A DNA stretch of 64,000 nt, taken from positions 24,580 through 88,579 of the IMG/VR virus record IMGVR_UViG_3300034093_001036; one strand, 5' to 3'. Both the position numbers and the translations under genes were made by a program. Below are positions 28,305-49,845 of the stretch, in pieces; position 1 is the first letter of the stretch, and each line of letters starts with the position of its first letter. A model generated the notes under the pieces. The model did not search any database. It worked only from the letters and a program-made list of their open reading frames with translations, and was not told where the DNA came from. The DNA is from a virus.

Positions 28305-29075
28305 TTAAGACGTTAACTTTTTCCACTCTTCTTTTTGAATGGCTTGCTCAATTCTTACTTGTTTTTCTTCTTCTTTCCACTTATCAATAGTTTCTTGACT
28401 ATATTCAATTTCAAAATAATCCCAAAAAGAAACCATAGTATATCTTGTGCCTTCTAATATTTTACTAACACCATGCACATTTTCTATTCCTCCAGGAAAT
28501 ACATAGTAAGAGTATGCATTTGGTTTAAAGGATAAATAGATGTCCCACTTTTCTCCTTCTGAATTTATTTCAAAGTCTTCTTTTTCTTTACAAAAGAAAA
28601 GATCTCCACCTTCATAGTCGTTATTAAGATATAGAATACCCACATACTTATTTATTTCAAAAGCGTTTGGGACCCCGTCATTATCTGAGTTGTCAGAATG
28701 AGGAGAAGCAAAACCGCCAACATCCCACTTCTGTGCATGAGATGTATTGGCTCTAACTTTTCTTTCAAAAACCAGTTCAACTGCTTCTTTAAACTTTTCT
28801 CTAAGGTCATCAAAAAATGTTAGCGTTAGACCATGTTCTTCAAGTCCTGGATCGTTTGCCATTAATCCCATACCTAGAGATCCATAAAACGCTATGTCTC
28901 CCCAGTTTTCTCCTTTTGACTCTACATAATTAATTAGACATTGGCTTGTTTTTTCATCTATAAAATTAGGAATTTCAACAATTCTGTTGTGAGTTATACC
29001 TAAAACACCCTTATTATTTAATTCATCTTTTAAATATTTAAAGTTATCTTTATTAAGTTGATTAATGATAGTCAT
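28305..29075 (-). CDS. 2OG-Fe(II) oxygenase, prolyl 4-hydroxylase-like
   Basis: PHSD...LYLNNDYEGG...HGV.....GTRY. Confidence 0.88.
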   Translation of the reverse strand: MTIINQLNKDNFKYLKDELNNKGVLGITHNRIVEIPNFIDEKTSQCLINYVESKGENWGDIAFYGSLGMGLMANDPGLEEHGLTLTFFDDLREKFKEAVELVFERKVRANTSHAQKWDVGGFASPHSDNSDNDGVPNAFEINKYVGILYLNNDYEGGDLFFCKEKEDFEINSEGEKWDIYLSFKPNAYSYYVFPGGIENVHGVSKILEGTRYTMVSFWDYFEIEYSQETIDKWKEEEKQVRIEQAIQKEEWKKLTS

Positions 29076-29874
29076 TTTTTATGTAAACCCCGCTGCTTCT
29101 TTCAATGTTCATTCTGTCTTTTTCCATTTGCATCCATGTATCTGGTCCATATTTTTTTTGATTCTCAATCCAAGCATCTGATGCTTGTTCATCTACATAC
29201 CAAAAAGATCTAACAAAATACTTTTCTCCTTCAGTAGTTTCTCTTACTCCATGCCAGTACGGTGGCCTTGACGGAAAGATAATTACATCTCCTTCTTCTG
29301 GCTTATAAGTAATTCTTGTAAAAGAATCTTTATTGGAAAATACTTTAAATTCAATTTCTCCGCCATTATAGTTACTATTTAAATACATATTGCAAGTCAG
29401 GGCTTGTTTTTCTCCTGGACCCTCTGCATCTTCTTGTGGATAGTCTGTATGAAAAGACATAGAATATCTTGAATTGTTGTTTTCAATATGTGGAGAGTCA
29501 CTTTCAGCCTTTGTAGAATCTTTTGAATTATAGTATTTGCATATGTCAGCCTTTAAAAATACTAAGTCCTCTAAGGATAGACCCGTTGTATCAACATAAT
29601 GCTTTGTTGTTTTATAAAAAACATCAAGTATATCCTTGTGTTGATCTGATACAAGAAAAGATTCTATGTATAAAGACCATTCTTGATCTGAAGGAAAAGA
29701 TTTAGATCGATAAAAATTGTTATTGAAAATTTTATAAATATCCCCAAAGTCATACCACTTTTCCCAAGTTGCGGAATCTAGAGAATCCAGAAGGCCACGC
29801 AAATCTTTAAATGGGTTCTTATATACAAAAATGTTTTGGTCTATTTTATTAAAATTAATATTTTTAATTGTCAC
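29062..29874 (-). CDS. 2OG-Fe(II) oxygenase, prolyl 4-hydroxylase-like
   Basis: FHTD...MYLNSNYNGGEI...HGV.....GEKY. Confidence 0.88.
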   Translation of the reverse strand: MTIKNINFNKIDQNIFVYKNPFKDLRGLLDSLDSATWEKWYDFGDIYKIFNNNFYRSKSFPSDQEWSLYIESFLVSDQHKDILDVFYKTTKHYVDTTGLSLEDLVFLKADICKYYNSKDSTKAESDSPHIENNNSRYSMSFHTDYPQEDAEGPGEKQALTCNMYLNSNYNGGEIEFKVFSNKDSFTRITYKPEEGDVIIFPSRPPYWHGVRETTEGEKYFVRSFWYVDEQASDAWIENQKKYGPDTWMQMEKDRMNIERSSGVYIKNDYH

Positions 29875-30707
29875 ATTGCTACCTTAGATTCATCTATACC
29901 CTTTTTAATATTTGGCTTTTTGAAATCGTGATACCTGTCACCTCTATCAATTCTTTCTTTTTCCATCTTTGCCCATTCTTCAACACCAAATTTTTCTTGA
30001 TTATCGTGCCACTCTTTTGTTCCAGCAAATGGAATTTGATAAAAGCATCTAATAAGATATTTGTCAATATTTCTAATTCTTTTAACACCGTGAAGGTATC
30101 TTCCCTCTTGAGATAATAAATCTGGATGGCCTGAAGGAAAAACCAAAACATCTCCAGCCTCTGGTTTATAATCTATAACCGTTTTATTCCCAGTTAAAAA
30201 TGTTATACCTCCATCGCCATAGTCATCATTCAAATACATTGTGCATGTTAATGCAAATTGTGCTCCTGGGCAATCTGTTTCAAGGGCTTTATAGTCTGAG
30301 TGATGGATCATTTCTAAAGAATCTTTATCGCTATTTGGATCATTGTCATGAGTATATTTTGAAATTGATGGGCCCATAATAATCCAGTCCTCTCCTATTT
30401 TAAGATTATGGGCAGACATAAAATTTTCGGTTGCATAACCAAATGCATGCTGTATTGTTTCTAATGCCTCAACCTCTTCTAAATATAGTGTGTTATTAAT
30501 ATTAGGATCATCTTCATTTAGAAAATTACCAATGACATATACATAGTGTCCAAACCTACTCCATGGTTGCCAATCGTCAAATAAAAAACTAGTTCCTTTG
30601 TTTAATTCAGACTGCTTAAATAATTCTACAATCCTTTTATTGTTTGGAATTAACCCTTTGTAAACATAAATGTTTTCATCTAATTGTTTAACTGTAATAT
30701 TATTCAT
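29871..30707 (-). CDS. 2OG-Fe(II) oxygenase, prolyl 4-hydroxylase-like
   Basis: HHSD...MYLNDDYGDGG...HGV.....DKY. Confidence 0.88.
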   Translation of the reverse strand: MNNITVKQLDENIYVYKGLIPNNKRIVELFKQSELNKGTSFLFDDWQPWSRFGHYVYVIGNFLNEDDPNINNTLYLEEVEALETIQHAFGYATENFMSAHNLKIGEDWIIMGPSISKYTHDNDPNSDKDSLEMIHHSDYKALETDCPGAQFALTCTMYLNDDYGDGGITFLTGNKTVIDYKPEAGDVLVFPSGHPDLLSQEGRYLHGVKRIRNIDKYLIRCFYQIPFAGTKEWHDNQEKFGVEEWAKMEKERIDRGDRYHDFKKPNIKKGIDESKVAM

Positions 30708-30746: not shown

Positions 30747-31301
30747 TTATACCACCTTGTCTCCAAATAAAATTGCAAAACCAAATCTAGGGGTTATGGG
30801 TTCAACATAGTGGTAAGTTCCACCAGGTATATACAATAGATCTCCTTCTTCTAATATAACATCCATAAAAGGTTGATCATTTTCAACAGAATCATAAAGT
30901 CTCCAACGTGTTTTACCTTTACATTGCCAATGTATATTGTTTTCCCTGTCTTCATGTTTGCCAATAACTTGTCCGCTATCTTCAAGTTTAAGTGAACCAA
31001 ATAACTGACATGTTACAACCTTTAAATCTTTAAAACAAGGATAAAATCTAGAATGAACTTCTTTTACAAATAAATTTACTGAACTTATAATCTGTGCCTC
31101 ATCATAAAATAATGCGTATGGATTAGGCAAAATCTTTTTACCAGTTTTTTTGTGCTCATAATCATTTACAAACTGAAGCACTTCATCCCAGGTAACTTCA
31201 GGCATTGATATTTTTGGAAAAAGAGTTGCTACTTTATTATTATAAGCATTTAAAAAATTATCTTGATCTAAAAAATTAAAATCAAAACTTTTATTTTTCA
31301 T
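30747..31301 (-). CDS. JmjC/cupin 2OG oxygenase (RoxA/cupin_4-like)
   Basis: KHED....WQCKGKTRWRLY...LEEGDLLYIPGGTYH. Confidence 0.85.
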   Translation of the reverse strand: MKNKSFDFNFLDQDNFLNAYNNKVATLFPKISMPEVTWDEVLQFVNDYEHKKTGKKILPNPYALFYDEAQIISSVNLFVKEVHSRFYPCFKDLKVVTCQLFGSLKLEDSGQVIGKHEDRENNIHWQCKGKTRWRLYDSVENDQPFMDVILEEGDLLYIPGGTYHYVEPITPRFGFAILFGDKVV

Positions 31302-31972
31302 TTTGATTTTCCATGTGAACGAATTGTAAAGAAAAAAGGAATAACATATCTAATTCCTTTTTTAATTTCTCTTACTCCGTGAATATAATTTAAATCTCCA
31401 GGGAAGAAATATGCAGAACCCGCTTTTGGCTTAAACTCAATTCCTTGATTTGGGAAATATAACTCTCCACCTTCATAGTCATCATTAAGATAAAAAAGAC
31501 CTGCAATATCATACCAAGGAAAATCATTTGGCTTTCCTACATTGTCTCCTTCGTGCAACTCTTTATCTGCATGTGGGTTTTGTAGTTGTCCTGGAAGCCA
31601 TCTAACAATTGCTGTTGCTGTGGGCCAGGCGTCAATATTAAAAAAATCATTTACTTCTTCTGTAAGCCTGTCTTGAAGGCTTTTAATTACTGGGTTTATA
31701 TTTTTATTATTTTGATCTAATCTATCTCCAGTGCAGACTCTGTCATCCCAATATTTAGAATCATAAATAACAGTTCCTTCTTCGTTATAGTGAGTTTCAG
31801 TAATATCCCAAATTGTAATATTTTTTGCTGATTCTGATAAAAAAGATAGTTCTTCGTCGGTCATAAAATTGTTTCGTGCTTGGATCATATCTGCACTTTT
31901 ACCAAAAAATCCAGAGGGAGTTATTGAAAATCTATCTTTATCTTGGTGATTAGAGTACTCTATTTTTTTCAT
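31298..31972 (-). CDS. 2OG-Fe(II) oxygenase, prolyl 4-hydroxylase-like
   Basis: PHAD...FYLNDDYEGGELYF...HGV.....GIRY; leaderless promoter. Confidence 0.88.
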   Translation of the reverse strand: MKKIEYSNHQDKDRFSITPSGFFGKSADMIQARNNFMTDEELSFLSESAKNITIWDITETHYNEEGTVIYDSKYWDDRVCTGDRLDQNNKNINPVIKSLQDRLTEEVNDFFNIDAWPTATAIVRWLPGQLQNPHADKELHEGDNVGKPNDFPWYDIAGLFYLNDDYEGGELYFPNQGIEFKPKAGSAYFFPGDLNYIHGVREIKKGIRYVIPFFFTIRSHGKSK

Positions 31973-31992: not shown

Positions 31993-32727
31993 CTATTCAT
32001 ATTTGCGCTGCTCCCAGATTTCATTTTTATATATTCCGCCATTTGGTTTTCTATAAATTTGATAATTTTCTATTGATTGCTTCATTAGTTCAACTGCATT
32101 ATCTTGTTCTATTATTTCAGAAGTCCAGGATTCTCTTTTAAATGGCAGAAGTTGAGCATACGCTGTTCCTTCTGGAATAATTCCCTCAAAACCCTCACAA
32201 ATAAAAAATGGAAAAGATCCAGGCATATGAACTTTGTCGTTATCCACAATTCCACTAGTTAGCAAAAATGGTAACTCAAATCTGTTAAATGGCTGAGTAT
32301 ACAATACGCTATATCCTGGAGGAGTTTTTATTTGCCAATCTGGAGTTATTGCAAAATGATTTTTGTAATACCCGCGGGGGTGTTCAAACTGTGGCATTTC
32401 TGATCTTTCTTCAATTAAGTTTTTATATTTTACATTTAAAACTTTATGTTTTAGTCCAGAATCAGTCATGTAGAATTCAATATCGCAAGGAAGATTAAGA
32501 GAATATCCAGAACCCATAATATCAAAAATTGCAGGACAGGCCTTCCATGTAGGAACTTTTCCACCATCCTCTCCTATATAAAAAGAATTGTCTGTTGGTA
32601 ATTTTGCAAACCTATCTGCTTTTCTAAACCATTCAGGAATTGTTCTTATAATTGGAGTTGGTGCTGACTTGCTTTCTTTTGAAAGCCAAATTTTATTTGC
32701 AATAAAAGATATTTTTTCTGTATTCAT
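31993..32727 (-). CDS. Conserved phage protein, probably related to DUF6065
   Basis: 244 aa with KACPAIFD..GSGY, WQIKTPPGYS, SGIVDND and IPEGTAYAQLLPFKR; same layout as the neighbouring DUF6065-like gene. Confidence 0.55.
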   Translation of the reverse strand: MNTEKISFIANKIWLSKESKSAPTPIIRTIPEWFRKADRFAKLPTDNSFYIGEDGGKVPTWKACPAIFDIMGSGYSLNLPCDIEFYMTDSGLKHKVLNVKYKNLIEERSEMPQFEHPRGYYKNHFAITPDWQIKTPPGYSVLYTQPFNRFELPFLLTSGIVDNDKVHMPGSFPFFICEGFEGIIPEGTAYAQLLPFKRESWTSEIIEQDNAVELMKQSIENYQIYRKPNGGIYKNEIWEQRKYE

Positions 32728-33437
32728 TACTTGTCACTTTGATATTTATTAATTGAAAGTTTTAAGGATTTTACTTCGTGCTCTCCAAGGCTATTTCCTA
32801 AATGGTCAACAGCATCTCTATAAAAGTTTGTCCATTGTCCAGACTGAGTTATTTCTCCAGAGGCTTTTCCATATTCAGAAAGATTCTTTTCAAAATCTTG
32901 ATCTTTTACATAGTCGTACAGATTTACTTCTGTTGCTTGGAGTTTTTTTAAACTAATTGGCATAATACAAACAATTGGTGTTCCTGCTGGTATTGTTATT
33001 ACTTCATTTGCCCTTGTTATTTTCCATGCATATGGAAGTGGAGCAAGATGGACAACTGGACTAATTACACTTGAGAATCCTTGAACACCATCAATAAATT
33101 GATTTGGAACTGGAAGGAGCAGTAGACTAATCTCATCAGTACTTTTAAAATATAAACCACTATTAAAACTTATAGTTCCGTTAGCCCTGTTTGCATGAAC
33201 ATACTTTTCTCCAGAAAGAATTTCAAGGTCTTCAGATCTAGAGTTTGGATCTGTTCCTTTCCAAATAAAAGAAATGTCTTCTGGAAAAGAAAATGTCCAT
33301 CCTGTTGTGTTTGCCAACGATACTGGGAAGCAATGATAGGCGTGTTTGTCAAAAGTTTCATCCATCCAGTTTCTTCTAACTTTTAAAGTATCAAAAGTTA
33401 CATCAGAATGTGGTGTTTGATAAACATCTATAGACAT
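32727..33437 (-). CDS. DUF6065-like protein
   Basis: RRNWMDET..HAYHCFPVSLANTTGW motif, recognised from memory of the family. Confidence 0.65.
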   Translation of the reverse strand: MSIDVYQTPHSDVTFDTLKVRRNWMDETFDKHAYHCFPVSLANTTGWTFSFPEDISFIWKGTDPNSRSEDLEILSGEKYVHANRANGTISFNSGLYFKSTDEISLLLLPVPNQFIDGVQGFSSVISPVVHLAPLPYAWKITRANEVITIPAGTPIVCIMPISLKKLQATEVNLYDYVKDQDFEKNLSEYGKASGEITQSGQWTNFYRDAVDHLGNSLGEHEVKSLKLSINKYQSDK

Positions 33438-33438
33438 G

Positions 33439-34125
33439 TTAGTTTCCTGTTTCTAAAAACATCTCTGGTCCATGGAATTTTGCGCTGTAGTCTAGCATTG
33501 TTACAATTGAATATTTAGTTCCGCTAGTAACTGGCATTGCTCTATGAGAATACATATATGTTGATGGGAAAATATACAAATCTCCAGCACGTGGTTTTAC
33601 TAATAAATCTTGGTGTTGAAAATGTAAACCACCGTCGACGTAGTCGTCATTTGGGTATGCAACCAAAGACACTGTACAGTTATAAGAAAATCCATGATCA
33701 TGATGATATTGGAAATGCTGACCCTCATGGTATCTAATAAAATTCATTGCTTCCCAAAACCTTAGTTCTGCAATATTAAACATTTTACGATAGTGCTCAA
33801 CTGCTGGACTTTTTCTATCGTAGCAGTCTTGCCAAAGTTGTTGAAGCGCTAAAGATGCTTCTCCTGGTCTTTGTGCCATATCTTTCTTTGTAAACTTAAA
33901 GTCAACACAATCTCTATATTCTGGCATGCTTTCTTGATAGCCAACAAACGCTTCCATCCAGTGAAATGGGTTGCTTTGGTCTTCAAGAACAGACTCTAAT
34001 CTGTTAATAATATCCAGTTCTTTAGGTAAAACATCTCTATAGACAAAAATTCCACTCCCTAGATCTTCAAAAGACGACCAGGTTTGCTCTATAGGGGTTG
34101 TCTCAGTTTGAACATGTTTTTGCAT
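33439..34125 (-). CDS. 2OG-Fe(II) oxygenase, prolyl 4-hydroxylase-like
   Basis: YHHDHG...AYPNDDYVDGG...HRAMPVTSGTKY. Confidence 0.88.
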   Translation of the reverse strand: MQKHVQTETTPIEQTWSSFEDLGSGIFVYRDVLPKELDIINRLESVLEDQSNPFHWMEAFVGYQESMPEYRDCVDFKFTKKDMAQRPGEASLALQQLWQDCYDRKSPAVEHYRKMFNIAELRFWEAMNFIRYHEGQHFQYHHDHGFSYNCTVSLVAYPNDDYVDGGLHFQHQDLLVKPRAGDLYIFPSTYMYSHRAMPVTSGTKYSIVTMLDYSAKFHGPEMFLETGN

Positions 34126-34160: not shown

Positions 34161-34865
34161 CTAGTTATTCTTATGATGTAAATCGTTATAGTCTGTCATA
34201 ATTACAACAGAATACTTTATACCCTGCAATAATTCACAAGAGGCATGCTCATAAACAAAATTTGATGGGAAAAGAACAATGTCTCCAGCCTGGGGCTTAA
34301 TCTTTAATTCTTGTCTTGGAAACTCTAATTCTCCACCAACATAGTCATCATTAAGATATAGTATTGCAGATATTGTACATGCATAGAATGGGCCATGGTC
34401 ACCATGAAGTTTAAAATATTTCCCAGGTAGATACTTAACAAAATTAAAGGCTTCTTTGTATTTCATCTGAAGATGCCATAAAGACTCATAATCATTTAGG
34501 CAGACATCTAATGCGTCTTCTACCTCTTTGTGTATGTCAAACATGTCTTGATTAAAAGATATCCCAGACTTTCCAAGCATATCTCTTTTATATTTTATAT
34601 CAATGCAGTTCCTAACATAATCTAAATTTTCTACATCATTAACCATTGCTGTAGACCAAGAAAGGTTACAGTCTGGATCGTTTGCTGAGTTTTCTAGTCT
34701 TTTAATTATACTATCACACTGGCTTCTATTTATGGCATTTTTATATACATTAATACCGTAGCCAATATTTAAAACCTCTATGTTATTTGACATTGATCTA
34801 GACTTTAGCCTACTGTCTGCTTTTTCTAATCTTGGTAAATCAAGCCACCCAAAGTTATTTGTCAT
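34161..34865 (-). CDS. 2OG-Fe(II) oxygenase, prolyl 4-hydroxylase-like
   Basis: LHGDHG...LYLNDDYVGGELEF...HAS.....GIKY; paralog of 33439-34125. Confidence 0.88.
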   Translation of the reverse strand: MTNNFGWLDLPRLEKADSRLKSRSMSNNIEVLNIGYGINVYKNAINRSQCDSIIKRLENSANDPDCNLSWSTAMVNDVENLDYVRNCIDIKYKRDMLGKSGISFNQDMFDIHKEVEDALDVCLNDYESLWHLQMKYKEAFNFVKYLPGKYFKLHGDHGPFYACTISAILYLNDDYVGGELEFPRQELKIKPQAGDIVLFPSNFVYEHASCELLQGIKYSVVIMTDYNDLHHKNN

Positions 34866-34909: not shown

Positions 34910-35587
34910 TTAAATTTGATATATGTAAATTTCTGCAAAATCATAAATTGGATCTTTTTTAAGCAATTCTTTAAAAATATAATCATTTTCAAAATGAAAA
35001 ACAAAAAAGGATTTAGATTTTGATAAAATTTCCCATTTATCTAATATTAATTTATTAAAAATTTCAGGCAGCAATGGGTAATAAAAATAATAAACACACT
35101 TTTCTTCTGAAAAATGATAATCATTTATATCACTATTTATAAAATCAACTTCTTTATCTATTTCTATATTAATTGTTTTTAAATTATTTAAAGCAATATT
35201 GTTGAATTGATCGTCTATCTCTACACCTACATACTTCTTATACGGTGCATTTGAGATTAACTGATGTAAAATTGTTTTTCCCTTACCGCTACCTATATCT
35301 AAAAAGGTATACTCCTCAATTCCTTCAATATCTTTCATAAAATTATTCACCATGTCTAAAATTTTTAAAGGTGAGTTCTGTAAACCCATTGATCCTGGAA
35401 ACCTATCATTATTATCAATACTGCCTGGCACATATTCACCAGAACCATCTGAGGCTAAAGGAGTTGGATGCCAAGTGTCTACATTATATTTTTCATCAAA
35501 AAATTTGAATAATGAAGCGTCTTCTCTTCTAATTTTTTTTAATACATCTAAATTCTTTATTGTACTTTTGTCTACACCTTTATGCAT
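34910..35587 (-). CDS. Class I SAM-dependent methyltransferase
   Basis: Motif I FLDIGSGKGK, then YVGVEID and YYFYYP. Confidence 0.85.
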   Translation of the reverse strand: MHKGVDKSTIKNLDVLKKIRREDASLFKFFDEKYNVDTWHPTPLASDGSGEYVPGSIDNNDRFPGSMGLQNSPLKILDMVNNFMKDIEGIEEYTFLDIGSGKGKTILHQLISNAPYKKYVGVEIDDQFNNIALNNLKTINIEIDKEVDFINSDINDYHFSEEKCVYYFYYPLLPEIFNKLILDKWEILSKSKSFFVFHFENDYIFKELLKKDPIYDFAEIYIYQI

Positions 35588-36167
35588 TTTTTGCTCCTAA
35601 ATATTTGTTTGGCATGATATCAATTATAGCATGGATTCTGTCATGGTCACTATCGTTTATTACTGAGTGTGGAATAATATTATTAATCTCATACCAATTT
35701 CCAACCTCAAGATACTTTTTTTCTTCAAATACTTCAAATATGACTTTTGGATTTGTTATTAGTGGAATATGTATTCTTCTACCGAGTTGTAGCATTACCC
35801 CGCCATCAACGTGAGATTTTATTCCAGAGCGCTTATTCATTTGAATTATCTCACTCCTAATAACTTTGCCATCGTACAAGTTTTCTAAATATTCATAAAT
35901 AGCATTAAGGCTTTCATTAGATTGTTTATTTTTAAAATAATTTATATCATAAGATGTATTGCCTTGTCCAATTTCCCAATGATAAGACATAAACCTTAGT
36001 TGAAACATTTTTGTATCTTTGTGCGTTGCCAACTTGTCTTGACGAGAAGTATCCAGTAGCCACTCATTTTCAAAAGAGTTAACTTCTTGAATTATTGAAG
36101 ATAGATCAACTGGTAAAGATCCATATTGATAGTTCCAAGAAGTATTCTTATCTGGTAGTTTTAACAT
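35580..36167 (-). CDS. Aspartyl/asparaginyl beta-hydroxylase-family 2OG oxygenase
   Basis: IKSHVD...RIHIPLITNP...EINN..PHSVIN....RIHAIID. Confidence 0.88.
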   Translation of the reverse strand: MLKLPDKNTSWNYQYGSLPVDLSSIIQEVNSFENEWLLDTSRQDKLATHKDTKMFQLRFMSYHWEIGQGNTSYDINYFKNKQSNESLNAIYEYLENLYDGKVIRSEIIQMNKRSGIKSHVDGGVMLQLGRRIHIPLITNPKVIFEVFEEKKYLEVGNWYEINNIIPHSVINDSDHDRIHAIIDIMPNKYLGAKNA

Positions 36168-45295: not shown

Positions 45296-45342
45296 AGTAA
45301 GTAACACCTACCAAGGTGTTGTTGTTTTCTAAGGAGGAAACT

Positions 45343-45906
45343 ATGATTAAATTTATCGAAAGAAACAAAGAGATCATTAGCACACTCAGTATCGTAGCAC
45401 TAGTAACAGTTATGTCTAATTCTGCTAATGCTATTTCAGATTTTGATACTAAGAATAACCTTAGCCTGAAACAGGCTCAGACATCGGAAACCACCTCGAA
45501 AGAGGTTTTTTTGGTTTCTAAAGCAAAAAAGTTAGAGAGTTTTGAAAATAAGGTTTCTCTAACAGATTTAGAACTAAAGGAACTGCTTTCCCTAGTTGGC
45601 TTCAAGGGTAAAGACCTTGTTGTGGCTTGGGCAGTAGCAAAGAAAGAATCTAATGGACGACCATTGGCCTTTAATGGCAATCACAAGACTGGGGATTCGT
45701 CTTATGGTATGTTCCAAATTAATATGATTGATACACTTGGTCCTGATCGTAGGGACAAGTTTGATCTTGACTCTAACGCTGAATTATTTAATCCCGTCAA
45801 GAATGCTGAAATTGCATACTACATGACAAAGGGTGGGGACGACTGGTCTTCTTGGAAAGGCATCACTCCAAAGACTAAGGAATGGATGGCTAAGTTTCCT
45901 CGCTAA
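45343..45906 (+). CDS. Lytic transglycosylase/lysozyme-like protein with N-terminal signal or anchor
   Basis: ATG 45343 after AAGGAGG; hydrophobic N-terminus; AVAKKES, YGMFQIN, LFNP..NA and WSSW motifs. Confidence 0.82.
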   Translation: MIKFIERNKEIISTLSIVALVTVMSNSANAISDFDTKNNLSLKQAQTSETTSKEVFLVSKAKKLESFENKVSLTDLELKELLSLVGFKGKDLVVAWAVAKKESNGRPLAFNGNHKTGDSSYGMFQINMIDTLGPDRRDKFDLDSNAELFNPVKNAEIAYYMTKGGDDWSSWKGITPKTKEWMAKFPR

Positions 45907-46856
45907 TTCCTTCTTGGTGGCATGCCAAGTGCCCTAGGCTCAACTACAACATGTGAACTGTAGTTTGGAATAAAGTCTGTGTATTTTGTGTCTATACCAG
46001 ACTCTTTAAGAAAATTGTAAACTTTTTCTTTTGGAATTTCTAATTGACCAGACATTAGCATAGACAGTCTATTAGTTGATTCTTCAACATGGCTCCAGTA
46101 GTGTTCTTTTCTGCCGTCTGCCCAAGGCCTAAGCGTTTCTCTTGTTACAGATCCATTTGCCTGTCCATGCGACTGATTGTGAAAAACATCCCTTGTGCCA
46201 ATAGAGTAAATTTTCCAATCTTTTGCATAAGTTCTTAAAGATAAAGCAAACTCTTCAGTATTGAATGATTCTTTACCGCTAATACCAACTTCATCAATCC
46301 ATTGCTTGGGTGCAAAAAGGTAACAACATGTAGCCCAATACGAACGAACTATTTCCTCTATTTCTAAAACCCTGTATCCTGGAAACTGAAATCCTGGAAC
46401 TAAATTATTAAATAAAAATCCATACAGTGATACTTTACAGTCTGTAACAAAATTAATTGACCCGTCTGACATTATTTTATACTCTGCTGGGGCATATGCA
46501 ATAATAAATTTTTCATTATTAATATTTAATTTTTCATATCTTTCAACAGCAAACCTATCCCATTCTGGTGCTGCATAGGTGTGTGAATCAAACTGTATAA
46601 AATAGTTATAATCTACATTAACTTGAGTTGCCAAGTTTCTAGCCCAACAGACACCACCCCTATACTCTGAAAGATCAAAGTGCCTATATAATAACTGTTC
46701 TTTTGGTATAAAAGATAAATCATATTTAGTATTATCTTCTGAAACTATAGAAAAATACAGATCCTCTTTATTTTTTGCCTGATGCCACAAAGAAAACATT
46801 GTAGAATAAAACTCTGGGTCACAATAATTGACAACACTAACTAATATTTTTTTCAT
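45903..46856 (-). CDS. GT60-like glycosyltransferase (Skp1 hydroxyproline GlcNAc-transferase family)
   Basis: ILVSVVNYCDPE, GVCWARN, YFIQFDSH...WD and EEFALSLR motifs. Confidence 0.78.
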   Translation of the reverse strand: MKKILVSVVNYCDPEFYSTMFSLWHQAKNKEDLYFSIVSEDNTKYDLSFIPKEQLLYRHFDLSEYRGGVCWARNLATQVNVDYNYFIQFDSHTYAAPEWDRFAVERYEKLNINNEKFIIAYAPAEYKIMSDGSINFVTDCKVSLYGFLFNNLVPGFQFPGYRVLEIEEIVRSYWATCCYLFAPKQWIDEVGISGKESFNTEEFALSLRTYAKDWKIYSIGTRDVFHNQSHGQANGSVTRETLRPWADGRKEHYWSHVEESTNRLSMLMSGQLEIPKEKVYNFLKESGIDTKYTDFIPNYSSHVVVEPRALGMPPRRN

Positions 46857-47413
46857 CCCTTATTTCTTATTCCAGTATATAAATGTTGTGGGCCTTTTGT
46901 AAAAAACCAATGATCTGGCTCTACATAAAAGAAAAAAGCATTTGCAACTAGGTTATTCTTTGGGTCAGGGAATTCCTCTCTCCAGTGTTGTTGATCATTC
47001 CCGTATGAAATAACCATATCATTTTCTTCTGGTTGAAACTTTATTCCTTCAACATAAAAATCCCAAGGTGTTTTATGAAAAATTGTATAATTCATATGGT
47101 ATGTACAAGCATTATCATCAACATGTTTCCAAAGTCTAGCCTTTTCTCCTTCATAGATACTTAATAAACACCAGGAAGGAAGTAATGTTTCTGATTCAAA
47201 TTCTTCTTTTGCCAGTGGTAGAAGCATCTGATGAAATTTTCTAAGTGGTATTATATTTTCTCTATGTGTTCCGTCCCAAATTGCCCATTGATGTCTACCA
47301 AAACCTTCGTCAAATGTACTTTTATCTGTTGACCAAAGATGCATTGCTAGATCTTGTAATTCCTTATGTTCTTTTTCTGGAAGAACGGTTTTTAATAAAT
47401 ATGGCGCTTTCAT
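46853..47413 (-). CDS. 2OG-Fe(II) oxygenase (phage type)
   Basis: SIY......LWKHVDDNAC...DMVISYG..QQHWRE. Confidence 0.78.
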   Translation of the reverse strand: MKAPYLLKTVLPEKEHKELQDLAMHLWSTDKSTFDEGFGRHQWAIWDGTHRENIIPLRKFHQMLLPLAKEEFESETLLPSWCLLSIYEGEKARLWKHVDDNACTYHMNYTIFHKTPWDFYVEGIKFQPEENDMVISYGNDQQHWREEFPDPKNNLVANAFFFYVEPDHWFFTKGPQHLYTGIRNKG

Positions 47414-47925
47414 CGTAGAAAACTAACTACTGCATATTTATCGCCTTCAATAATTGGGGATACTGAGTGATTATAAACATATATAGATGGAAATATAATT
47501 ATTTGATTAGTTTTTGGTTTAAGTTTAATATTAAATCTTGGAAAGTTTATTTCTCCACCAATATAATCATCATTTAAATAATATACAACTGAAACTCTTC
47601 TATGATATTCGGTTCCGTCATCTACATGATTAATAAAACCTTGTCCTGGACTATATTTCATTATTCCGTATACGTCATGCCATTCAGGAAATATCTTATA
47701 ATACTCTTTATAGTCTTTCTCTATTGGATCAAAATGATCAAAGAACAACCTGTTTAATTTTAAAGAAGTTATTTTTTCTAAATCTTCAACTTCTGCATAA
47801 GACCATTTAGGTGTAATCCATTTAGAATCCATCATCAATTTTTGAATTTCTTTATATAAAAAAACATTATCTGGAATTACATTATCATATACAACAATTC
47901 CTGGAGCAATTTCTTCTTTTATCAT
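47410..47925 (-). CDS. 2OG-Fe(II) oxygenase, prolyl 4-hydroxylase-like
   Basis: Likely start ATG 47925 (TAATG overlap); NHVD...YYLNDDYIGGEINF...HSVSPIIEGDKY. Confidence 0.88.
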   Translation of the reverse strand: MIKEEIAPGIVVYDNVIPDNVFLYKEIQKLMMDSKWITPKWSYAEVEDLEKITSLKLNRLFFDHFDPIEKDYKEYYKIFPEWHDVYGIMKYSPGQGFINHVDDGTEYHRRVSVVYYLNDDYIGGEINFPRFNIKLKPKTNQIIIFPSIYVYNHSVSPIIEGDKYAVVSFLR

Positions 47926-48122
47926 TACCATTTTCCTAACGGACACGATGCTGCTTCTAACATTACTTTTGCTTTCATAAAACATCCACATTTTTTACAT
48001 TGTTTTGTTAATTTTATTAGTTCTGGACATTGTTTGCATATATTAAATCTTTGATTAGAGAGATCTGATTCCTTTACATAATTTTTTAAATTAAGCATGT
48101 GTAAAGGATTTACTTCGTTCAT
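47925..48122 (-). CDS. Small Cys-rich protein (DUF6171-like)
   Basis: R..ICKQC......QCKKCGCFMKAK......CPLGKW. Confidence 0.75.
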   Translation of the reverse strand: MNEVNPLHMLNLKNYVKESDLSNQRFNICKQCPELIKLTKQCKKCGCFMKAKVMLEAASCPLGKW

Positions 48123-48123
48123 T

Positions 48124-49845
48124 TTATTCTGAATCTCTTTGTGTTAGGCCTTGGAAGACACCCTTCTTATTATGAGAGATTAGATCTCCTGCAATAAAGA
48201 GTGAATAAGGATTTACAGTGATGTCATAAACATCTGTTGTTTCATCAACATAACCCAATACTTCAACAAGTACATCTGTTGCTTGATTATTTATGTCATA
48301 AACTAAATAGTCGCCAAGTTTAATTACACCAGCCTGAATAAATGCGTATACTCCATCTCTCTTAACTAGCATTAAGTGCTCTAGAGAGAATCTTCTTTGC
48401 TTACTACCATTAAACATTACAGTAGTTGCAACATCTCTTGCCTTAATTGCACTAATAGTTGTTTCAACAACTGATGATCCAGTTAGAGTATCAGATACCC
48501 ATGTCTCAGCAAAATCAACAGATGAGTTATCTGGTAATTCATTGAAACTGTAGGATACTAGACTTTGTCCTATAAACAAATCTCTTGCTTTAACATATCC
48601 ACTAGTTGTTCTTACAAGAACATCACCCTGTACACATCCATCAATTGGTGCAACTGGTGTTGGTTCAGTTGGAGTTGGGGTAAATACTGGTGGGAAGAAT
48701 GGACAGAATACTGGTGGGAAGAATGGACAGAATACTGGTGGGAAGAACGGACAGAATGATGGTGGGAAGAACGGTGGGAAGAACGGTGGGAAGAACGGTG
48801 GGAAGAATGGTCCTGTTGCTGGAGGCGTACAGTCTTGTGTGTCCGAATCTGTTCCTGTTGTAACAATTGGGGCTGGGTTTGGAGAACATCCACTTGCAGT
48901 TTCTGTTATAGTATACGATCTAGTTCTTGTTTGTGCATATTCATCTGGGCCACCAACTCTTACACAAGCACCCCAAGGACCCCACTCACCGTAAGTTGTT
49001 GTTGTTGTCCAGGTTGGTACACATGTTGGTGCAACTGGTGCAACTGGTGCAACTGGTGCAACTGGTGCAGTTGGTGTAGGTGTTGTACAAGTTACTGATG
49101 GATATCCTGAAGAACTTGCTGCAGTAATATTGGTTGCAGTTGGATATGTTGCTAATAAATTATCTAATGCCTGTCCTGATGTTGCTCCTGTGTCAGTAAC
49201 CGTAGTTCCACCAACACAACCAGAGATATACCAAGTTGTTGCAACAGGTGTTGGAGTAGGTGTTGTACAAGTTACTGATGGATATCCTGAAGAACTTGCT
49301 GCAGTAATATTGGTTGCAGTTGGGTGAACTTCTAGAAGATTATCAAGGGCTCTTCCTGATGTTGGACCTTCTCCATAAACAGGACTTCCATTAACGCAAC
49401 CAGAGATGTACCAAGTAACAGGTGTTGGTGTTGGTGTTGGTACACATGCTGCAGGAATTCCCAATAAAGTAACAATTTCAGCACTTGACAAGTTTGATAT
49501 TGTAGTTGTTCCTGTAATGTTTGTAATTCCTGATCCTGTAGGAGGTGTTCCATAAGCGCCTGAATAAGCAGTCGTTGATCCGTTACATGTTACATAAATA
49601 TCATAAATTGTAACCTCTGGTGTTGGTGTTACAGGAGTAGGTGCTACAGGAGTAGGTTCTACAGGAGTAGGTGCTACAGGAGTAGGTGCTACAGGAGTAG
49701 GTGCTACAGGAGTAGGTGCTACAGGAGTAGGTGCTACAGGAGTAGGTTCTACAGGAGTAGGTGCTACAGGAGTAGGTGCTACAGGAGTAGGAGTTGCTGC
49801 TAAAAATATTCCTATACCACTTGGGCCACGAAATAATGGACTCAT
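48124..49845 (-). CDS. Pro/Thr-rich repeat + TSP1-like + PPFF/Cys repeat + Hint-domain protein (copy B)
   Basis: PTPVA repeats, two 60-aa Cys-bounded repeats, WGPWGAC...QTRTR, PPFF/PPVFC repeats at 48682-48810 and a Hint domain at 48169-48636. Confidence 0.88.
   Translation of the reverse strand: MSPLFRGPSGIGIFLAATPTPVAPTPVAPTPVEPTPVAPTPVAPTPVAPTPVAPTPVAPTPVEPTPVAPTPVTPTPEVTIYDIYVTCNGSTTAYSGAYGTPPTGSGITNITGTTTISNLSSAEIVTLLGIPAACVPTPTPTPVTWYISGCVNGSPVYGEGPTSGRALDNLLEVHPTATNITAASSSGYPSVTCTTPTPTPVATTWYISGCVGGTTVTDTGATSGQALDNLLATYPTATNITAASSSGYPSVTCTTPTPTAPVAPVAPVAPVAPTCVPTWTTTTTYGEWGPWGACVRVGGPDEYAQTRTRSYTITETASGCSPNPAPIVTTGTDSDTQDCTPPATGPFFPPFFPPFFPPFFPPSFCPFFPPVFCPFFPPVFCPFFPPVFTPTPTEPTPVAPIDGCVQGDVLVRTTSGYVKARDLFIGQSLVSYSFNELPDNSSVDFAETWVSDTLTGSSVVETTISAIKARDVATTVMFNGSKQRRFSLEHLMLVKRDGVYAFIQAGVIKLGDYLVYDINNQATDVLVEVLGYVDETTDVYDITVNPYSLFIAGDLISHNKKGVFQGLTQRDSE
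49620..49795 (-). repeat. About eleven tandem 15-nt repeats encoding PTPV(A/E)
   Basis: Plus strand unit acaggagtaggtgct. Confidence 0.95.

What the first reader, a model, noticed from the sequence alone, without database searches (positions are those of the whole stretch)
28305..49845. Candidate new system: PPFF/Cys-repeat Hint-domain proteins paired with dedicated tailoring-enzyme clusters
Seen: the same minus-strand architecture occurs twice, fibre gene then Pro-Pro-Phe-Phe/Cys repeat + Hint gene then modifying enzymes. Copy A (36836-38200) is followed by a sulfotransferase, an AspH-like hydroxylase, a methyltransferase, six P4H-like oxygenases, a JmjC oxygenase and two DUF6065-like genes. 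Copy B (48124-49845) is followed by a DUF6171-like Cys protein, two oxygenases and a GT60-like transferase. Known: prolyl hydroxylation followed by GT60 GlcNAc transfer is the protist Skp1 pathway, and Hint domains self-cleave through a Cys1 thioester. Inference: this is a phage-encoded, RiPP-like assembly line that hydroxylates, glycosylates, methylates and sulfates Pro/Phe repeats. The product would be either a displayed virion appendage (adhesion, camouflage, grazer interaction) or a released peptide. I cannot confirm novelty without a search.
Basis: partly seen in the sequence, partly recalled or inferred. Interest (0 to 1): 0.92.

Follow-up and report, generated by a model that had tools for sequence, protein, structure and literature searches.

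The report
Phage proline-repeat fibre proteins with hydroxylase arrays
A lake-water phage encodes two tail-fibre-linked proteins made of odd proline-rich repeats, each followed by a row of protein-hydroxylase-type and sugar- or sulfate-adding enzymes, which may show what the many unexplained viral prolyl hydroxylase genes act on.

Summary

The pairing is real but wider than "PPFF-Hint". In 76 of 80 related viral contigs, an fn3 + (P)PFF-repeat protein follows an Mtd_N tail fibre. It is followed by 4-9 P4H-like oxygenases plus a DUF6065 pair. All 80 contigs belong to one uncultured lake-phage lineage.

Only 11 of 57 distinct PFF proteins carry the C-terminal Hint domain. That domain is closest to bacterial intein-like domains.

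At a second site, PTPVA/Cys-module fibre proteins are followed by DUF6171, P4H, an unknown gene and GT60.

Support from outside the lineage:
- A probable jumbo phage has fibre, then a poly-proline protein, then P4H and DUF6065.
- DUF6065 is fused to P4H or sulfotransferase domains, and DUF6171 is fused to GT60.

Best reading (about 0.5): phage-encoded modification of proline-rich virion fibre appendages, with Hint as a self-removing C-terminal domain. The RiPP reading is unlikely.

The scan had only first-reader notes on this same DNA, plus one withheld follow-up report.

The parts
38231..40948 (-). Tail fibre protein (905 aa) directly upstream of copy A
   Evidence: Pfam Mtd_N E 7.6e-15. 37 PHROG families match; the named ones among the 25 shown are mostly tail fibre or minor tail. 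The same gene precedes the PFF protein in 74 of 74 related loci that have an upstream gene.
36836..38200 (-). Copy A: fn3 + (P)PFF/Cys repeat + C-terminal Hint (BIL-like) protein, 454 aa
   Evidence: Translation. fn3 at 39 bits; Intein_splicing at 24.8 bits, below its cut-off of 35.8. 358+ viral relatives.
37347..37597 (-). DNA tandem array encoding the PFF/PPFF/CPFFPPVF repeat of copy A
   Evidence: TRF periods 12/24/33/45/69. 16 PFF units.
36836..37348 (-). Hint/BIL-like domain of copy A. It has Cys1 (C285), an S-x-x-H block, and ends HN (N440) followed by Lys and a 14-aa tail.
   Evidence: Alignment A5. As a profile, its best solved match is 2lwy, a bacterial intein-like domain (E 3.6e-9). 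The single sequence matches the MJ0781 intein at 6.8e-5.
36148..36834 (-). Sulfotransferase-like protein; it starts 1 nt after copy A ends
   Evidence: Pfam Sulfotransfer_2, 24.6 bits, cut-off 22. Orthologues follow the Hint-bearing PFF proteins of L004, L008 and L010, and site-2 proteins of L120, L124 and L125.
35580..36167 (-). Asp/Asn beta-hydroxylase-like 2OG oxygenase
   Evidence: Pfam Asp_Arg_Hydrox E 2.1e-10, 41.1 bits, cut-off 22.6.
34910..35587 (-). Probable class-I SAM methyltransferase (weak)
   Evidence: Seven methyltransferase families match at E 3e-4 to 8e-3, all below cut-off. A GxGxG-type motif is visible in the translation.
34161..34865 (-). P4H-like oxygenase 6 (core of the array)
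   Evidence: 2OG-FeII_Oxy_3, 45 bits. H-D-H kept in 55 of 57 distinct orthologues; the other 2 have a gap at the third position.
33439..34125 (-). P4H-like oxygenase 5 (core)
   Evidence: 2OG-FeII_Oxy_3, 47 bits. H-D-H kept in 55 of 55.
32727..33437 (-). DUF6065 protein (core)
   Evidence: PF19541 E 2.8e-28. In other proteins this domain is fused to 2OG-FeII_Oxy_3 or Sulfotransfer_1 and to Cupin_8/JmjC_2 (Atlas cluster).
31993..32727 (-). Distant DUF6065 paralogue (core)
   Evidence: No Pfam hit. hhalign against the DUF6065 alignment gives 97.3%, E 2.2e-11.
31298..31972 (-). P4H-like oxygenase 4 (core)
   Evidence: 2OG-FeII_Oxy_3, 36.4 bits. H-D-H kept in 55 of 56; the other has a gap.
30747..31301 (-). 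JmjC/cupin oxygenase
   Evidence: JmjC_2 at 38.2 bits (cut-off 22); Cupin_8 at 30.1 bits.
29871..30707 (-). P4H-like oxygenase 3
   Evidence: 2OG-FeII_Oxy_3, 29.4 bits. H-D-H kept in 25 of 25.
29062..29874 (-). P4H-like oxygenase 2
   Evidence: 2OG-FeII_Oxy_3, 44.5 bits. H-D-H kept in 6 of 6.
28305..29075 (-). P4H-like oxygenase 1 (last gene of the array; the RNR gene follows after 103 nt)
   Evidence: 2OG-FeII_Oxy_3, 28.6 bits. H-D-H kept in 49 of 49.
49864..50622 (-). Fibre-like N-terminal module upstream of copy B
   Evidence: phrog_5906, unknown function. In L006, L121, L122 and L124 the same N-terminal sequence is fused in one ORF to the Pro-rich repeat/Cys-module protein.
48124..49845 (-). 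Copy B: PTPVA repeats, two 60-aa modules, a Cys-rich W..W..C module, a PFF/Cys array and Hint (573 aa)
   Evidence: Translation. TRF arrays at 49625-49791, 49070-49416 and 48683-48811. The Hint domain (48124-48636) is 148/170 aa and 443/513 nt identical to that of copy A.
47925..48122 (-). DUF6171 small Cys-rich protein (65 aa)
   Evidence: PF19668, 33.5 bits, cut-off 27. Present upstream of GT60 in 10 of 11 GT60 loci. Fused to GT60 in P0386.
47410..47991 (-). P4H-like oxygenase B (the real start is probably near 47928, because the ORF overlaps DUF6171)
   Evidence: 2OG-FeII_Oxy_3, 51 bits. H-D-H kept in 14 of 14.
46853..47413 (-). Unknown 186-aa protein that always precedes GT60; possibly a divergent oxygenase
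   Evidence: No Pfam hit. H97, D99, H143 and R145 are invariant in 6 sequences. hhalign against the P4H paralogues gives 1%. The nearest named Atlas clusters are 2OG-FeII_Oxy_3 at 0.90-0.91, which is a lead only.
45903..46856 (-). GT60-type glycosyltransferase
   Evidence: PF11397, 73.6 bits, cut-off 21. 144 homologues at E<=1e-5; all 120 listed carry PF11397.

Best explanation
The window comes from an uncultured lake-water siphophage. Its portal is 47% identical to those of Streptomyces cluster phages such as Coruscant.

The phage encodes two fibre-associated appendage proteins built from proline-rich low-complexity repeats. Copy A carries (P)PFF and CPFFPPVF units. Copy B carries PTPVA linkers, Cys modules and a short PFF array.

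I propose that the enzyme genes packed directly downstream of each one modify these proteins, and possibly neighbouring fibre proteins, after translation and before or during virion assembly. The steps would be:
- hydroxylation by the P4H-like, AspH-like and JmjC 2OG oxygenases, with the DUF6065 pair as partner proteins;
- O-glycosylation by GT60 with its DUF6171 zinc-ribbon-like partner;
- in this phage, also sulfation and methylation.

The C-terminal Hint domain is an optional cassette related to bacterial intein-like domains. With Cys1 and a terminal His-Asn but Lys at +1, it cannot splice canonically. I infer that it cleaves itself off at Cys1. That makes it a self-removing C-terminal pro-domain for a repetitive fibre, and possibly a way to pass the fibre's new C-terminus to a nucleophile.

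Shown here: gene content, family membership, conserved catalytic residues, conserved and repeated gene neighbourhoods, and domain fusions.

Inferred: that the repeat proteins are the substrates, which residues are modified, that the proteins are in the virion, and that the Hint domain is active.
For: 1. Families. Seven 2OG-FeII_Oxy_3 genes score above cut-off.
- A profile of them matches 54 solved sequences at E<=0.01. Nearly all are protein prolyl or lysyl hydroxylases: prolyl 4-hydroxylases 3itq, 5hv0 and 5c5t, P3H1, EGLN1 and LH3. A few are PiuC-type hydroxylases.
- The H-x-D...H triad is kept in 259 of 262 distinct orthologues. The other 3 have a gap at the third position.

2. Tight packing on one strand (coordinates):
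- 30 nt from fibre to copy A.
- 1 nt from copy A to the sulfotransferase.
- Overlaps, or gaps of at most 44 nt, through the whole array.

3. Lineage-wide conservation:
- 76 of 80 fetched loci hold a full PFF ORF (57 distinct proteins).
- 74 of 74 are preceded by the Mtd_N fibre.
- 67 of 68 loci with at least 3 kb downstream have a P4H-like gene within four ORFs.
- 51 of 51 loci with at least 6 kb downstream hold o6, o5, DUF6065 and its paralogue.
- 36 complete arrays hold 4-9 P4H-like genes.

4. The same enzyme kinds stand next to a second, different Pro-rich fibre protein at site 2.
- DUF6171 and the unknown gene precede GT60 in 10 of 11 GT60 loci.
- The sulfotransferase directly follows the repeat protein at site 1 (window, L004, L008, L010) and at site 2 (L120, L124, L125).

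5. Other phages.
- L128 and L130-L134 (GC 0.32; the 80-kb record is rated 34% complete; the window's portal was not found in it) have this order: an 1878-aa fibre with Peptidase_S74, a 369-aa protein with proline runs of 32, 19 and 13, P4H-like (10-nt gap), an unknown gene, DUF6065, an unknown gene, a methyltransferase, a sugar epimerase/dehydratase, and a GT7 gene.
- GT60 directly follows a SPVGV-repeat + Hint fibre protein in L135, and stands two ORFs after a poly-Thr protein in L137.

6. Fusions.
- I picked 10 DUF6065 representatives because they were long. Seven also carry 2OG-FeII_Oxy_3 and one carries Sulfotransfer_1.
- An Atlas cluster joins DUF6065 to Cupin_8/JmjC_2.
- P0386 joins DUF6171 to GT60.

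7. Structural role.
- Copy A has an fn3 domain.
- The site-2 protein is fused to the fibre-like N-terminal module in L006, L121, L122 and L124.
- The L135 protein has PASTA domains.

8. Hint.
- The 11-sequence profile best matches a bacterial intein-like domain (E 3.6e-9).
- Dickeya phage AD1 gp108, annotated 'virion structural protein' in a tail module, has collagen repeats followed by a C-terminal Hint.

9. Precedent. The PBCV-1 prolyl 4-hydroxylase hydroxylates virus-encoded Pro-Ala-Pro-Lys repeats (passage in PMC3634087).
Against: - All 80 + 11 loci with the window's gene order belong to one phage lineage. Their synteny may be inherited rather than selected.
- The array abuts a ribonucleotide reductase gene. 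In relatives it also holds short-chain dehydrogenases (43 ORFs in 38 loci) and a glutathione-peroxidase-like gene. That looks like an auxiliary-gene island.
- In the second lineage, only 1 of 6 P4H-like genes of record G204 is next to the poly-proline gene. The other five lie in a separate island with DUF6171, and no ORF there exceeds 12% proline in 18.5 kb.
- L126 and L129 (short contigs) show DUF6065 and P4H with no Pro-rich ORF. In L127 the poly-proline ORF is 4 kb away.
- GT60 occurs without a recognisable P4H in L115 and L117-L121 (6 of the 10 GT60 loci that reach upstream; L116 is cut at GT60), and in L135 and L137. Hydroxyproline is therefore not a required acceptor.
- Bacterial stand-alone DUF6065 genes have no consistent neighbourhood. 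Of 10 neighbours scanned, 7 had family hits, all different, and 3 had none.
- Hint variants in relatives lack Cys1 (L067, L073, L077) or the block-B His (L011, L029, L013). Self-cleavage cannot be general.
- There is no mass spectrometry, expression or structural evidence. PF13640 enzymes can also act on non-protein substrates.
Confidence: 0.5

Rival explanations
1. The arrays are auxiliary or host-takeover islands that merely sit beside the fibre genes. Under this reading, the oxygenases, DUF6065, DUF6171, sulfotransferase, dehydrogenase and glycosyltransferases act on one of three things: host proteins (for example translation factors or ribosomal proteins), host envelope glycans, or small molecules. 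The repeat proteins are unmodified neighbours.
For: - The array lies between the fibre genes and a ribonucleotide reductase gene.
- Relatives add short-chain dehydrogenases and a glutathione-peroxidase-like gene.
- In G204, five P4H-like genes and DUF6171 form an island with no Pro-rich ORF.
- L126 and L129 have DUF6065 and P4H without a Pro-rich neighbour.
- P4HA is reported among the commonest viral 'auxiliary metabolic genes' in Baltic water. The authors write that its use by viruses remains cryptic (passages in PMC9301287).
- All synteny evidence within the lineage is phylogenetically non-independent.
Against: - Site 2 enzymes are embedded inside the fibre module, not at its edge.
- The same enzyme kinds stand next to Pro-rich proteins at two sites and in a second lineage. 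In that lineage the gap between the poly-proline gene and the P4H gene is 10 nt.
- GT60 stands directly after, or two ORFs after, three different low-complexity tail proteins.
- The solved relatives of the oxygenases are mainly protein hydroxylases.
Confidence: 0.27
2. This is a RiPP-like assembly line. The repeat region is a precursor, it is tailored by the enzymes, and the Hint thioester releases or cyclises it to give a free peptide.
For: - A Cys1 Hint domain directly follows the repeat. In copy A the F|C junction is repeated upstream.
- Many tailoring-type enzymes are clustered.
- The C-termini of relatives are polymorphic: short Cys-rich tails, Hint, or neither.
Against: - Hint cleavage at Cys1 would leave the repeat attached to a 200-aa fn3 N-terminal part, not free it.
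- No leader peptide, peptidase, exporter or RiPP recognition element family was found among the genes at 28305-50622.
- 46 of 57 distinct PFF proteins have no Hint-like domain.
- In copy B the Hint junction is ...APIDG|C, not the repeat.
- Site-2 proteins are 400-980 aa multi-module proteins fused to a fibre-like domain.
Confidence: 0.05
3. The enzymes do modify virion proteins, but not the PFF/PTPVA repeats. Their substrates would be other fibre or tail proteins, such as the Mtd_N fibre, the 688-aa fibre or the Cys modules. The repeats would be plain structural spacers.
For: - Several oxygenase kinds present here (AspH-like, JmjC) are known, from my recall of those families, to act on Asp/Asn/Arg/His in folded domains rather than on proline.
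- The PFF repeat offers only Pro, Phe and Cys, yet 7 or more different hydroxylases are kept.
- Cys-rich modules abound in site-2 proteins.
Against: - In the second lineage, the gene immediately before the P4H gene is specifically the poly-proline protein.
- The enzyme genes follow the repeat proteins, not the large fibres, at both sites.
Confidence: 0.13

Closest known systems
Chlorella virus PBCV-1 prolyl 4-hydroxylase with virus-encoded proline-rich repeats (Eriksson et al. 1999, as described in PMC3634087)
   Same: A virus encodes both a P4H-family 2OG oxygenase and proteins with short proline-rich tandem repeats that serve as its substrates. The profile of the window's paralogues matches solved prolyl 4-hydroxylases best. 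That entry 5c5t is the PBCV-1 enzyme is my recall, not stated in the table.
   Different: Here the virus is a bacteriophage. The arrays hold 4-9 paralogues plus DUF6065, JmjC, AspH-like, sulfotransferase and GT60 genes. The repeats are (P)PFF and PTPVA, not PAPK. The candidate substrate gene is directly adjacent. No enzyme activity has been shown.
Skp1 prolyl hydroxylation/glycosylation pathway of Dictyostelium and Toxoplasma (PhyA then Gnt1, GT60)
   Same: A P4H-family gene and a PF11397/GT60 gene lie side by side. In the known pathway, hydroxylated Skp1 is the substrate of Gnt1 (passage in PMC3515798).
   Different: There is no Skp1-like target. GT60 occurs without a recognisable P4H in 6 of the 10 GT60 loci that reach upstream, and in L135 and L137. 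It stands beside Thr/Ser/Pro-rich tracts, so the acceptor may be Thr or Ser. It also has a DUF6171 partner, fused to it in P0386.
Bacterial intein-like (BIL) domains and other non-splicing Hint domains
   Same: The profile of the 11 C-terminal domains best matches solved BIL domain 2lwy (E 3.6e-9), followed by mini-inteins. Cys1, an (S/T)xxH block and a terminal His-Asn are present, and the +1 residue is not a nucleophile. Titles in the reference list of PMC4031507 describe auto-cleavage of BIL domains that lack a C'-flanking nucleophile.
   Different: The domain sits at the very C-terminus of phage fibre-associated repeat proteins, with a tail of 1-14 residues. Relatives have lost Cys1 or the block-B His. 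The Pfam intein and Hint models score below cut-off.
Self-cleaving C-terminal intramolecular chaperone domains of phage tail fibres and spikes (Peptidase_S74) and the collagen C-propeptide (function recalled, not from a call)
   Same: Both are C-terminal domains of a fibrous, repetitive tail protein that could be removed by autoproteolysis after assembly. The second-lineage fibre next to the poly-proline gene carries Peptidase_S74. AD1 gp108 joins collagen repeats to a C-terminal Hint.
   Different: The fold and chemistry differ: a Hint thioester or Asn cyclisation rather than a Ser-Lys dyad. The chaperone role is my inference and is untested.
Virion glycosylation in mycobacteriophages (Freeman et al. 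2023; seen only as a reference-list entry in PMC12801897; content recalled; the paper is not held)
   Same: Phage-encoded glycosyltransferases next to structural genes modify virion proteins of actinobacteriophages.
   Different: That system, as I recall it, glycosylates capsid and tail-tube proteins and involves no oxygenases, sulfotransferase, DUF6065, DUF6171 or Hint domains.

Membership tests
2OG-Fe(II) oxygenase, P4H-like branch (PF13640) | Family profile match above the curated cut-off | tested here: met
   7 of 7 genes score 28.6-51 bits against a cut-off of 27.
2OG-Fe(II) oxygenase, P4H-like branch (PF13640) | H-x-D...H iron triad and a distal basic residue for 2-oxoglutarate | tested here: met
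   The triad is invariant in the 7 paralogues, each with K or R two residues before a conserved Tyr. It is kept in 259 of 262 distinct orthologues.
2OG-Fe(II) oxygenase, P4H-like branch (PF13640) | Hydroxylation of peptidyl proline | not testable with these tools
   The only indication is that the nearest solved relatives are prolyl and lysyl hydroxylases.
Hint / intein superfamily (BIL-like) | Sequence similarity to Hint or intein domains | tested here: met
   Profile A5 against solved structures: 2lwy (BIL) 3.6e-9, MJ0781 intein 9.2e-8, 18 hits at E<=0.01. The Pfam models alone score below cut-off (24.8 and 18.3 bits against 35.8).
Hint / intein superfamily (BIL-like) | N-terminal nucleophile (Cys1), block-B (T/S)xxH, C-terminal His-Asn | tested here: met
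   All three are present in window copies A and B, L008, L010 and L135. They are incomplete in L011, L029 and L013 (no block-B His) and in L067, L073 and L077 (no Cys1).
Canonical splicing intein | Cys/Ser/Thr at +1 and a C-extein to ligate | tested here: not met
   Lys follows His-Asn in both copies, and only 14 residues follow.
GT60 glycosyltransferase (PF11397) | Family profile match above cut-off | tested here: met
   73.6 bits against 21, E 2.6e-20.
Skp1-type Hyp-GlcNAc pathway | Obligate pairing of P4H and GT60 on a hydroxyproline acceptor | tested here: not met
   A recognisable P4H lies upstream of GT60 in only 4 of the 10 GT60 loci that reach upstream (L116 is cut at GT60). None is seen in L135 or L137, nor in the held fragments of their records.
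RiPP biosynthetic cluster | Short precursor with leader and core; leader peptidase, exporter or recognition element | tested here: not met
   The precursor candidates are 454 and 573 aa multi-domain proteins. No such families were hit among the genes at 28305-50622. Only Pfam was scanned for this, so distant versions could be missed.
Collagen-like triple helix | Gly at every third residue | tested here: not met
   The PFF/PPFF array contains no Gly. Collagen repeats are found only in the analogue AD1 gp108.
DUF6065 (PF19541) | Family profile match | tested here: met
   32727-33437 matches at E 2.8e-28. 31993-32727 matches only by profile-profile comparison, at 97.3%.
Sulfotransferase (PF03567) | Family profile match above cut-off | tested here: met
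   24.6 bits against 22, which is marginal. The site-2 orthologue in L124 scores 20.8 bits, below cut-off.

The most novel reading that the evidence does not exclude
Phages build their own extracellular-matrix-like material. Under this reading, an array of up to nine hydroxylase paralogues, with DUF6065 and DUF6171 partners, a sulfotransferase and GT60, converts an all-Pro/Phe(/Cys) polymer and PTPVA linkers on the tail fibre into a heavily hydroxylated, glycosylated and sulfated adhesive or camouflaging appendage. The C-terminal Hint thioester is then used not just for self-removal but to ligate the fibre's end covalently, either to the upstream repeat cysteines, to another virion protein, or to the host wall. 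This would also assign a substrate class to the abundant viral P4H 'auxiliary' genes of aquatic viromes.
Probability: 0.15. Interest if true: 0.9.

Novelty: new variant of a known kind. Interest (0 to 1): 0.72.

Why it matters
Prolyl-4-hydroxylase-type genes are among the commonest 'auxiliary' genes in aquatic viromes, and their use by viruses is called cryptic (PMC9301287).

This locus, its 358+ relatives and a second lineage place such genes directly after phage-encoded proline-rich, fibre-linked proteins. That gives concrete candidate substrates which can be tested by co-expression and mass spectrometry.

It also defines three things I found no description of:
- A (P)PFF repeat protein family. 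Searches found no description of it.
- A functional link between DUF6065 and DUF6171 and protein hydroxylases, sulfotransferases and GT60. A search for DUF6065 returned 0 papers.
- A recurring architecture of a repetitive phage fibre capped by a C-terminal Hint domain.

If virion fibres are hydroxylated, glycosylated and sulfated, this bears on host recognition, particle stability and the oxygen dependence of phage production in lakes.

Tried and rejected
- Nucleotide search of the 21.5-kb region against cultured phages gave one 38-nt chance match. The DUF6065 protein has no match in cultured phages. GT60 matches only two Xanthomonas jumbo phages (not followed up).
- BLASTP of copy A against copy B returned nothing useful, probably because of compositional adjustment. 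A MAFFT alignment in a script showed the shared cassette.
- BLASTP of the two DUF6065-like genes was insignificant. Profile comparison settled the question.
- The DUF6065 profile against solved structures gave only weak hits: a WSSV dUTPase-like protein at E 0.15 and LPMOs at 1.9. No fold was assigned.
- The profile of the unknown gene 46853-47413 found nothing. hhalign against the P4H paralogues gave 1%.
- The promoter and terminator scan was at chance level: 69 promoter-like sites against 76.6 expected, and 16 terminator-like sites against 10.4 expected. I make no operon claim from it.
- Bacterial neighbourhoods of DUF6065 were uninformative. My ORF picking there is crude for high-GC DNA.
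- The genome collection scan for PFF proteins gave 3 hits, all short MAG contigs labelled with three different bacterial families, so there is no host signal.
- Sequencing runs: 20 lake-water metagenome runs hold the stretch, and any of them may be its source. No RNA holder is listed.
- Laying contigs showed only that unitigs break at the Hint domain and the repeat, and that word depth rises about 30-fold over the PFF array. That fits many genomes sharing the repeat words, but it is not a measurement.
- P0201 found nothing in viral contigs.
- Papers PMC3556154 and PMC5259590 mention Hint only for terminase inteins.
- Complex prediction was not used, because enzyme-substrate pairs are poor cases for it.
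- Supplementary files of papers were not consulted.

Full report
**What is in the window.** The 64-kb window is part of an 88.6-kb IMG/VR virus record rated 81% complete. Nearly all of its genes are on the minus strand.
- It is a siphovirus-type genome. It has a 2955-aa tape measure protein, a major head protein, a protease and a portal.
- The portal is 47% identical to those of Streptomyces phages such as Coruscant.
- Twenty lake-water metagenome runs hold nearly all sampled words of the stretch 33000-38300. Any of them may be its source.

Copy A (36836-38200) has three parts:
- an fn3 domain;
- an 85-residue array of PPFF/PFF units grading into CPFFPP(V/R)F octamers;
- a 170-residue C-terminal Hint-like domain.

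Copy A follows an Mtd_N tail fibre. The genes after it are, in order:
- a sulfotransferase-like gene;
- an Asp/Asn-hydroxylase-like gene;
- a weak methyltransferase;
- two P4H-like genes;
- DUF6065;
- a distant DUF6065 paralogue (hhalign 97.3%);
- a P4H-like gene;
- a JmjC gene;
- three more P4H-like genes.

Gaps between these genes are 1-44 nt, or the genes overlap (coordinates).

Copy B (48124-49845) has PTPVA repeats, Cys-bounded modules, a short PFF/Cys array and a Hint domain. That Hint domain is 148/170 aa identical to the one in copy A. The genes after copy B are:
- DUF6171;
- one P4H-like gene;
- an unassigned 186-aa gene;
- GT60.

The unassigned gene keeps H, D, H and R invariant in six homologues. 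It could not be tied to oxygenases: hhalign gave 1% and the Atlas gave a lead only.

**How general it is.** The pattern scan found 358 or more viral contigs that encode relatives of copy A, and 80 were fetched. My ORF-picking step scored 76 of them. Two of the other four are cut at a contig end and two were dropped by that step.

Among the 76 scored loci there are 57 distinct PFF proteins:
- 74 of 74 with an upstream gene follow the Mtd_N fibre.
- 67 of 68 with at least 3 kb downstream have a P4H-like gene within four ORFs.
- 51 of 51 with at least 6 kb downstream hold oxygenases 6 and 5, DUF6065 and its paralogue.
- 36 complete arrays hold 4-9 P4H-like genes (median 7).

The iron-binding triad is kept in 259 of 262 distinct orthologues.

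The repeat number varies from 6 to 49 PFF units, and the C-terminus is polymorphic:
- 22 proteins end in short Cys-rich tails.
- 24 end in short tails with fewer than three Cys.
- 7 end in Hint domains with Cys1 and His-Asn.
- 4 end in degenerate Hint-like domains.

The Hint domain is thus an optional cassette, not a defining part. The sulfotransferase/AspH/methyltransferase trio occurs only with the window's Hint type (window, L004, L008, L010). That may reflect a single evolutionary event.

All of these contigs share the window's gene order and structural genes. They are one lineage, so their synteny is not independent evidence.

**The second site.** Upstream of the lysozyme-like gene at 45316-45906, relatives carry a second Pro-rich protein. 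It has VTPA, PT or PTPVA linkers, small Cys-rich modules, sometimes PFF units, and the same kinds of Cys-rich tails. It is often fused in one ORF to the homologue of 49864-50622.

In the 11 loci found with GT60:
- DUF6171 and the unassigned gene precede GT60 in 10. The eleventh locus is cut.
- A recognisable P4H is present in 4.
- A sulfotransferase-like gene directly follows the repeat protein in 3.

The enzymes at this site therefore pair with Pro-rich linker proteins in general. The same enzyme kinds appear beside repeat proteins at both sites.

**Evidence from outside the lineage.** A distant DUF6065 fusion protein used as query led to nine further loci.

Six of them are L128 and L130-L134. 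Their GC is 0.31-0.32. The L130 record is 80 kb, rated 34% complete, and shows no match to the window's portal. In L130-L132 and L134 the gene order is:
- an 1878-aa fibre with a Peptidase_S74 chaperone domain;
- a 369-aa protein with three proline runs of 32, 19 and 13 residues between globular parts;
- 10 nt later, a P4H-like gene;
- an unknown gene;
- DUF6065;
- an unknown gene;
- a methyltransferase;
- a sugar epimerase/dehydratase;
- an unknown gene;
- a GT7 + laminin-G protein.

L128 begins within the Pro-rich ORF, and L133 begins with a cut ORF before the P4H gene.

This is the best independent support, but it has limits:
- The same record has five more P4H-like genes, with DUF6171, in an island that has no Pro-rich ORF.
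- L126 and L129 show no Pro-rich neighbour.
- L127 has a poly-proline ORF 4 kb from the P4H gene.

GT60 in other contexts:
- In L135 it directly follows a 908-aa protein with PASTA domains, SPVGV repeats and a C-terminal Hint. This phage's portal is related to the window's.
- In L137 it stands two ORFs after a protein with a poly-Thr tract, and there GT60 is fused to DUF6171.

The held fragment of the L135 record has no P4H-like gene, no DUF6065 and no PFF protein where the window has them. It is a fragment rated 46% complete, so this is only a hint of joint absence.

**Domain fusions.**
- I chose ten DUF6065 representatives because they were long. Seven also carry 2OG-FeII_Oxy_3, one carries Sulfotransfer_1, one carries an integrase arm-binding domain and one carries nothing else.
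- An Atlas cluster joins DUF6065 to Cupin_8/JmjC_2.
- DUF6065 also occurs in bacteria. Twenty-nine of 201 genomes of one order matched the fusion query, and in 24 the match covered the DUF6065 half. Their neighbourhoods were uninformative.

These fusions tie DUF6065 and DUF6171 functionally to the hydroxylases, the sulfotransferase and GT60, whatever the substrate is.

**The Hint domain.** Eleven C-terminal domains align over their whole length. As a profile, their best solved match is a bacterial intein-like domain, followed by mini-inteins.

Window copies A and B, L008, L010 and L135 have Cys1, an (S/T)xxH block and a terminal His-Asn. The +1 residue is Lys, or Ala in L135, so canonical splicing is excluded. 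Other relatives lack Cys1 or the block-B His.

Dickeya phage AD1 gp108, annotated as a virion structural protein in a tail module, joins collagen repeats to a C-terminal Hint. A Hint cap on a repetitive phage fibre therefore recurs with four different repeat types. I infer a self-removing C-terminal pro-domain. A ligating role for the thioester is possible but untested.

**Weighing the readings.**
- Modification of the Pro-rich fibre appendages is the best fit (about 0.5).
- An auxiliary island acting on host targets remains a serious rival (about 0.27). It is supported by the RNR neighbour, by dehydrogenase and peroxidase genes in relatives, and by the separate island in G204.
- Modification of other virion proteins (about 0.13) cannot be separated from the best reading without mass spectrometry.
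- The RiPP reading (about 0.05) conflicts with the protein architecture.

**Comparison with what is known, and novelty.** The nearest precedent is the PBCV-1 prolyl 4-hydroxylase with its PAPK repeats (passage in PMC3634087). The Skp1 PhyA/Gnt1 pathway shares the enzyme families but not the obligate coupling (passage in PMC3515798).

I found nothing in print on the following:
- DUF6065 (0 papers);
- Pro-Phe-Phe repeats in phages (9 unrelated papers);
- freshwater actinophage oxygenases (0 papers);
- phage tail-fibre hydroxyproline systems (the papers listed do not describe one).

These searches cover only the held open-access library. One paper names P4HA among the commonest viral auxiliary genes and calls its use cryptic.

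I rate this a new variant of a known kind. It is widespread and undescribed, and its mechanism is inferred.

**Limits.** There is therefore no structural model of the PFF array, DUF6065 or the unassigned gene. There is also no context for most metagenomic DUF6065 fusions.

Noticed in passing
window 4087-12954 (-): The tape measure protein is 2955 aa, which is very long for a genome of about 110 kb and implies an unusually long tail (PHROG tape-measure families).
   Followed up: no
window 22426-26142 (-): A 1238-aa ORF between the portal and RNR genes has no Pfam or PHROG match. It is conserved in relatives, with E = 0 in several loci.
   Followed up: no
window 26168-28201 (-): A ribonucleotide reductase gene sits between the oxygenase array and the head genes. 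Some relatives show it in pieces; L074 has three RNR fragments.
   Followed up: no
window 45316-45906 (+): The only plus-strand gene inside the fibre region is an SLT_3 lysozyme-like protein with a hydrophobic N-terminal segment. It marks the end of site 2 in all relatives.
   Followed up: partly
window 48829-49420 (-), copy B: Copy B has two 60-aa WYISGC...YPSVTC modules (180-nt period) and a W..W..C module. Site-2 proteins of relatives string many different small Cys-rich modules between (A)PTPV linkers.
   Followed up: partly
window 36836-37348 and 48124-48636: The PFF/Cys array plus Hint cassette is shared by the two otherwise unrelated proteins, at 86% nt and 87% aa identity. Close relatives of copy B (L115, L117) end without Hint. 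This suggests recent copying of the cassette within this phage.
   Followed up: partly
L135:7275-9998: A fibre-type protein with a Listeria-Bacteroides repeat, two PASTA domains, long SPVGV repeats and a C-terminal Hint is followed directly by GT60. PASTA domains hint at binding to a Gram-positive cell wall.
   Followed up: partly
L137:7983-9206 (= P0386): DUF6171 and GT60 are fused in one 402-aa protein, two ORFs after a protein with a poly-Thr tract, in a different phage.
   Followed up: partly
L138 (G204:C1:1-18500): This island holds five P4H-like genes, DUF6171 and several unassigned ORFs, with no Pro-rich ORF. One ORF has a GGGxxG-type N-terminus and another resembles a sulfotransferase P-loop by eye; neither was tested.
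   Followed up: partly
related loci, e.g. L047:18044-18736 and L082:9694-10497: Many relatives end the oxygenase array with a short-chain dehydrogenase (43 ORFs in 38 loci). Some carry a glutathione-peroxidase-like gene inside it.
   Followed up: partly
L114:2999-4438 (Dickeya phage AD1 gp108): An annotated virion structural protein in a cultured jumbo phage has collagen G-X-Y repeats followed by a C-terminal Hint with Cys1, THEH and HN-T. Thirty-three cultured Erwinia, Dickeya and Yersinia phage records share this Hint.
   Followed up: partly
control genomes of the genome search: Caulobacter vibrioides is the only one of 14 control genomes with a DUF6065 gene above cut-off. A model organism in which the family could be studied therefore exists.
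   Followed up: no
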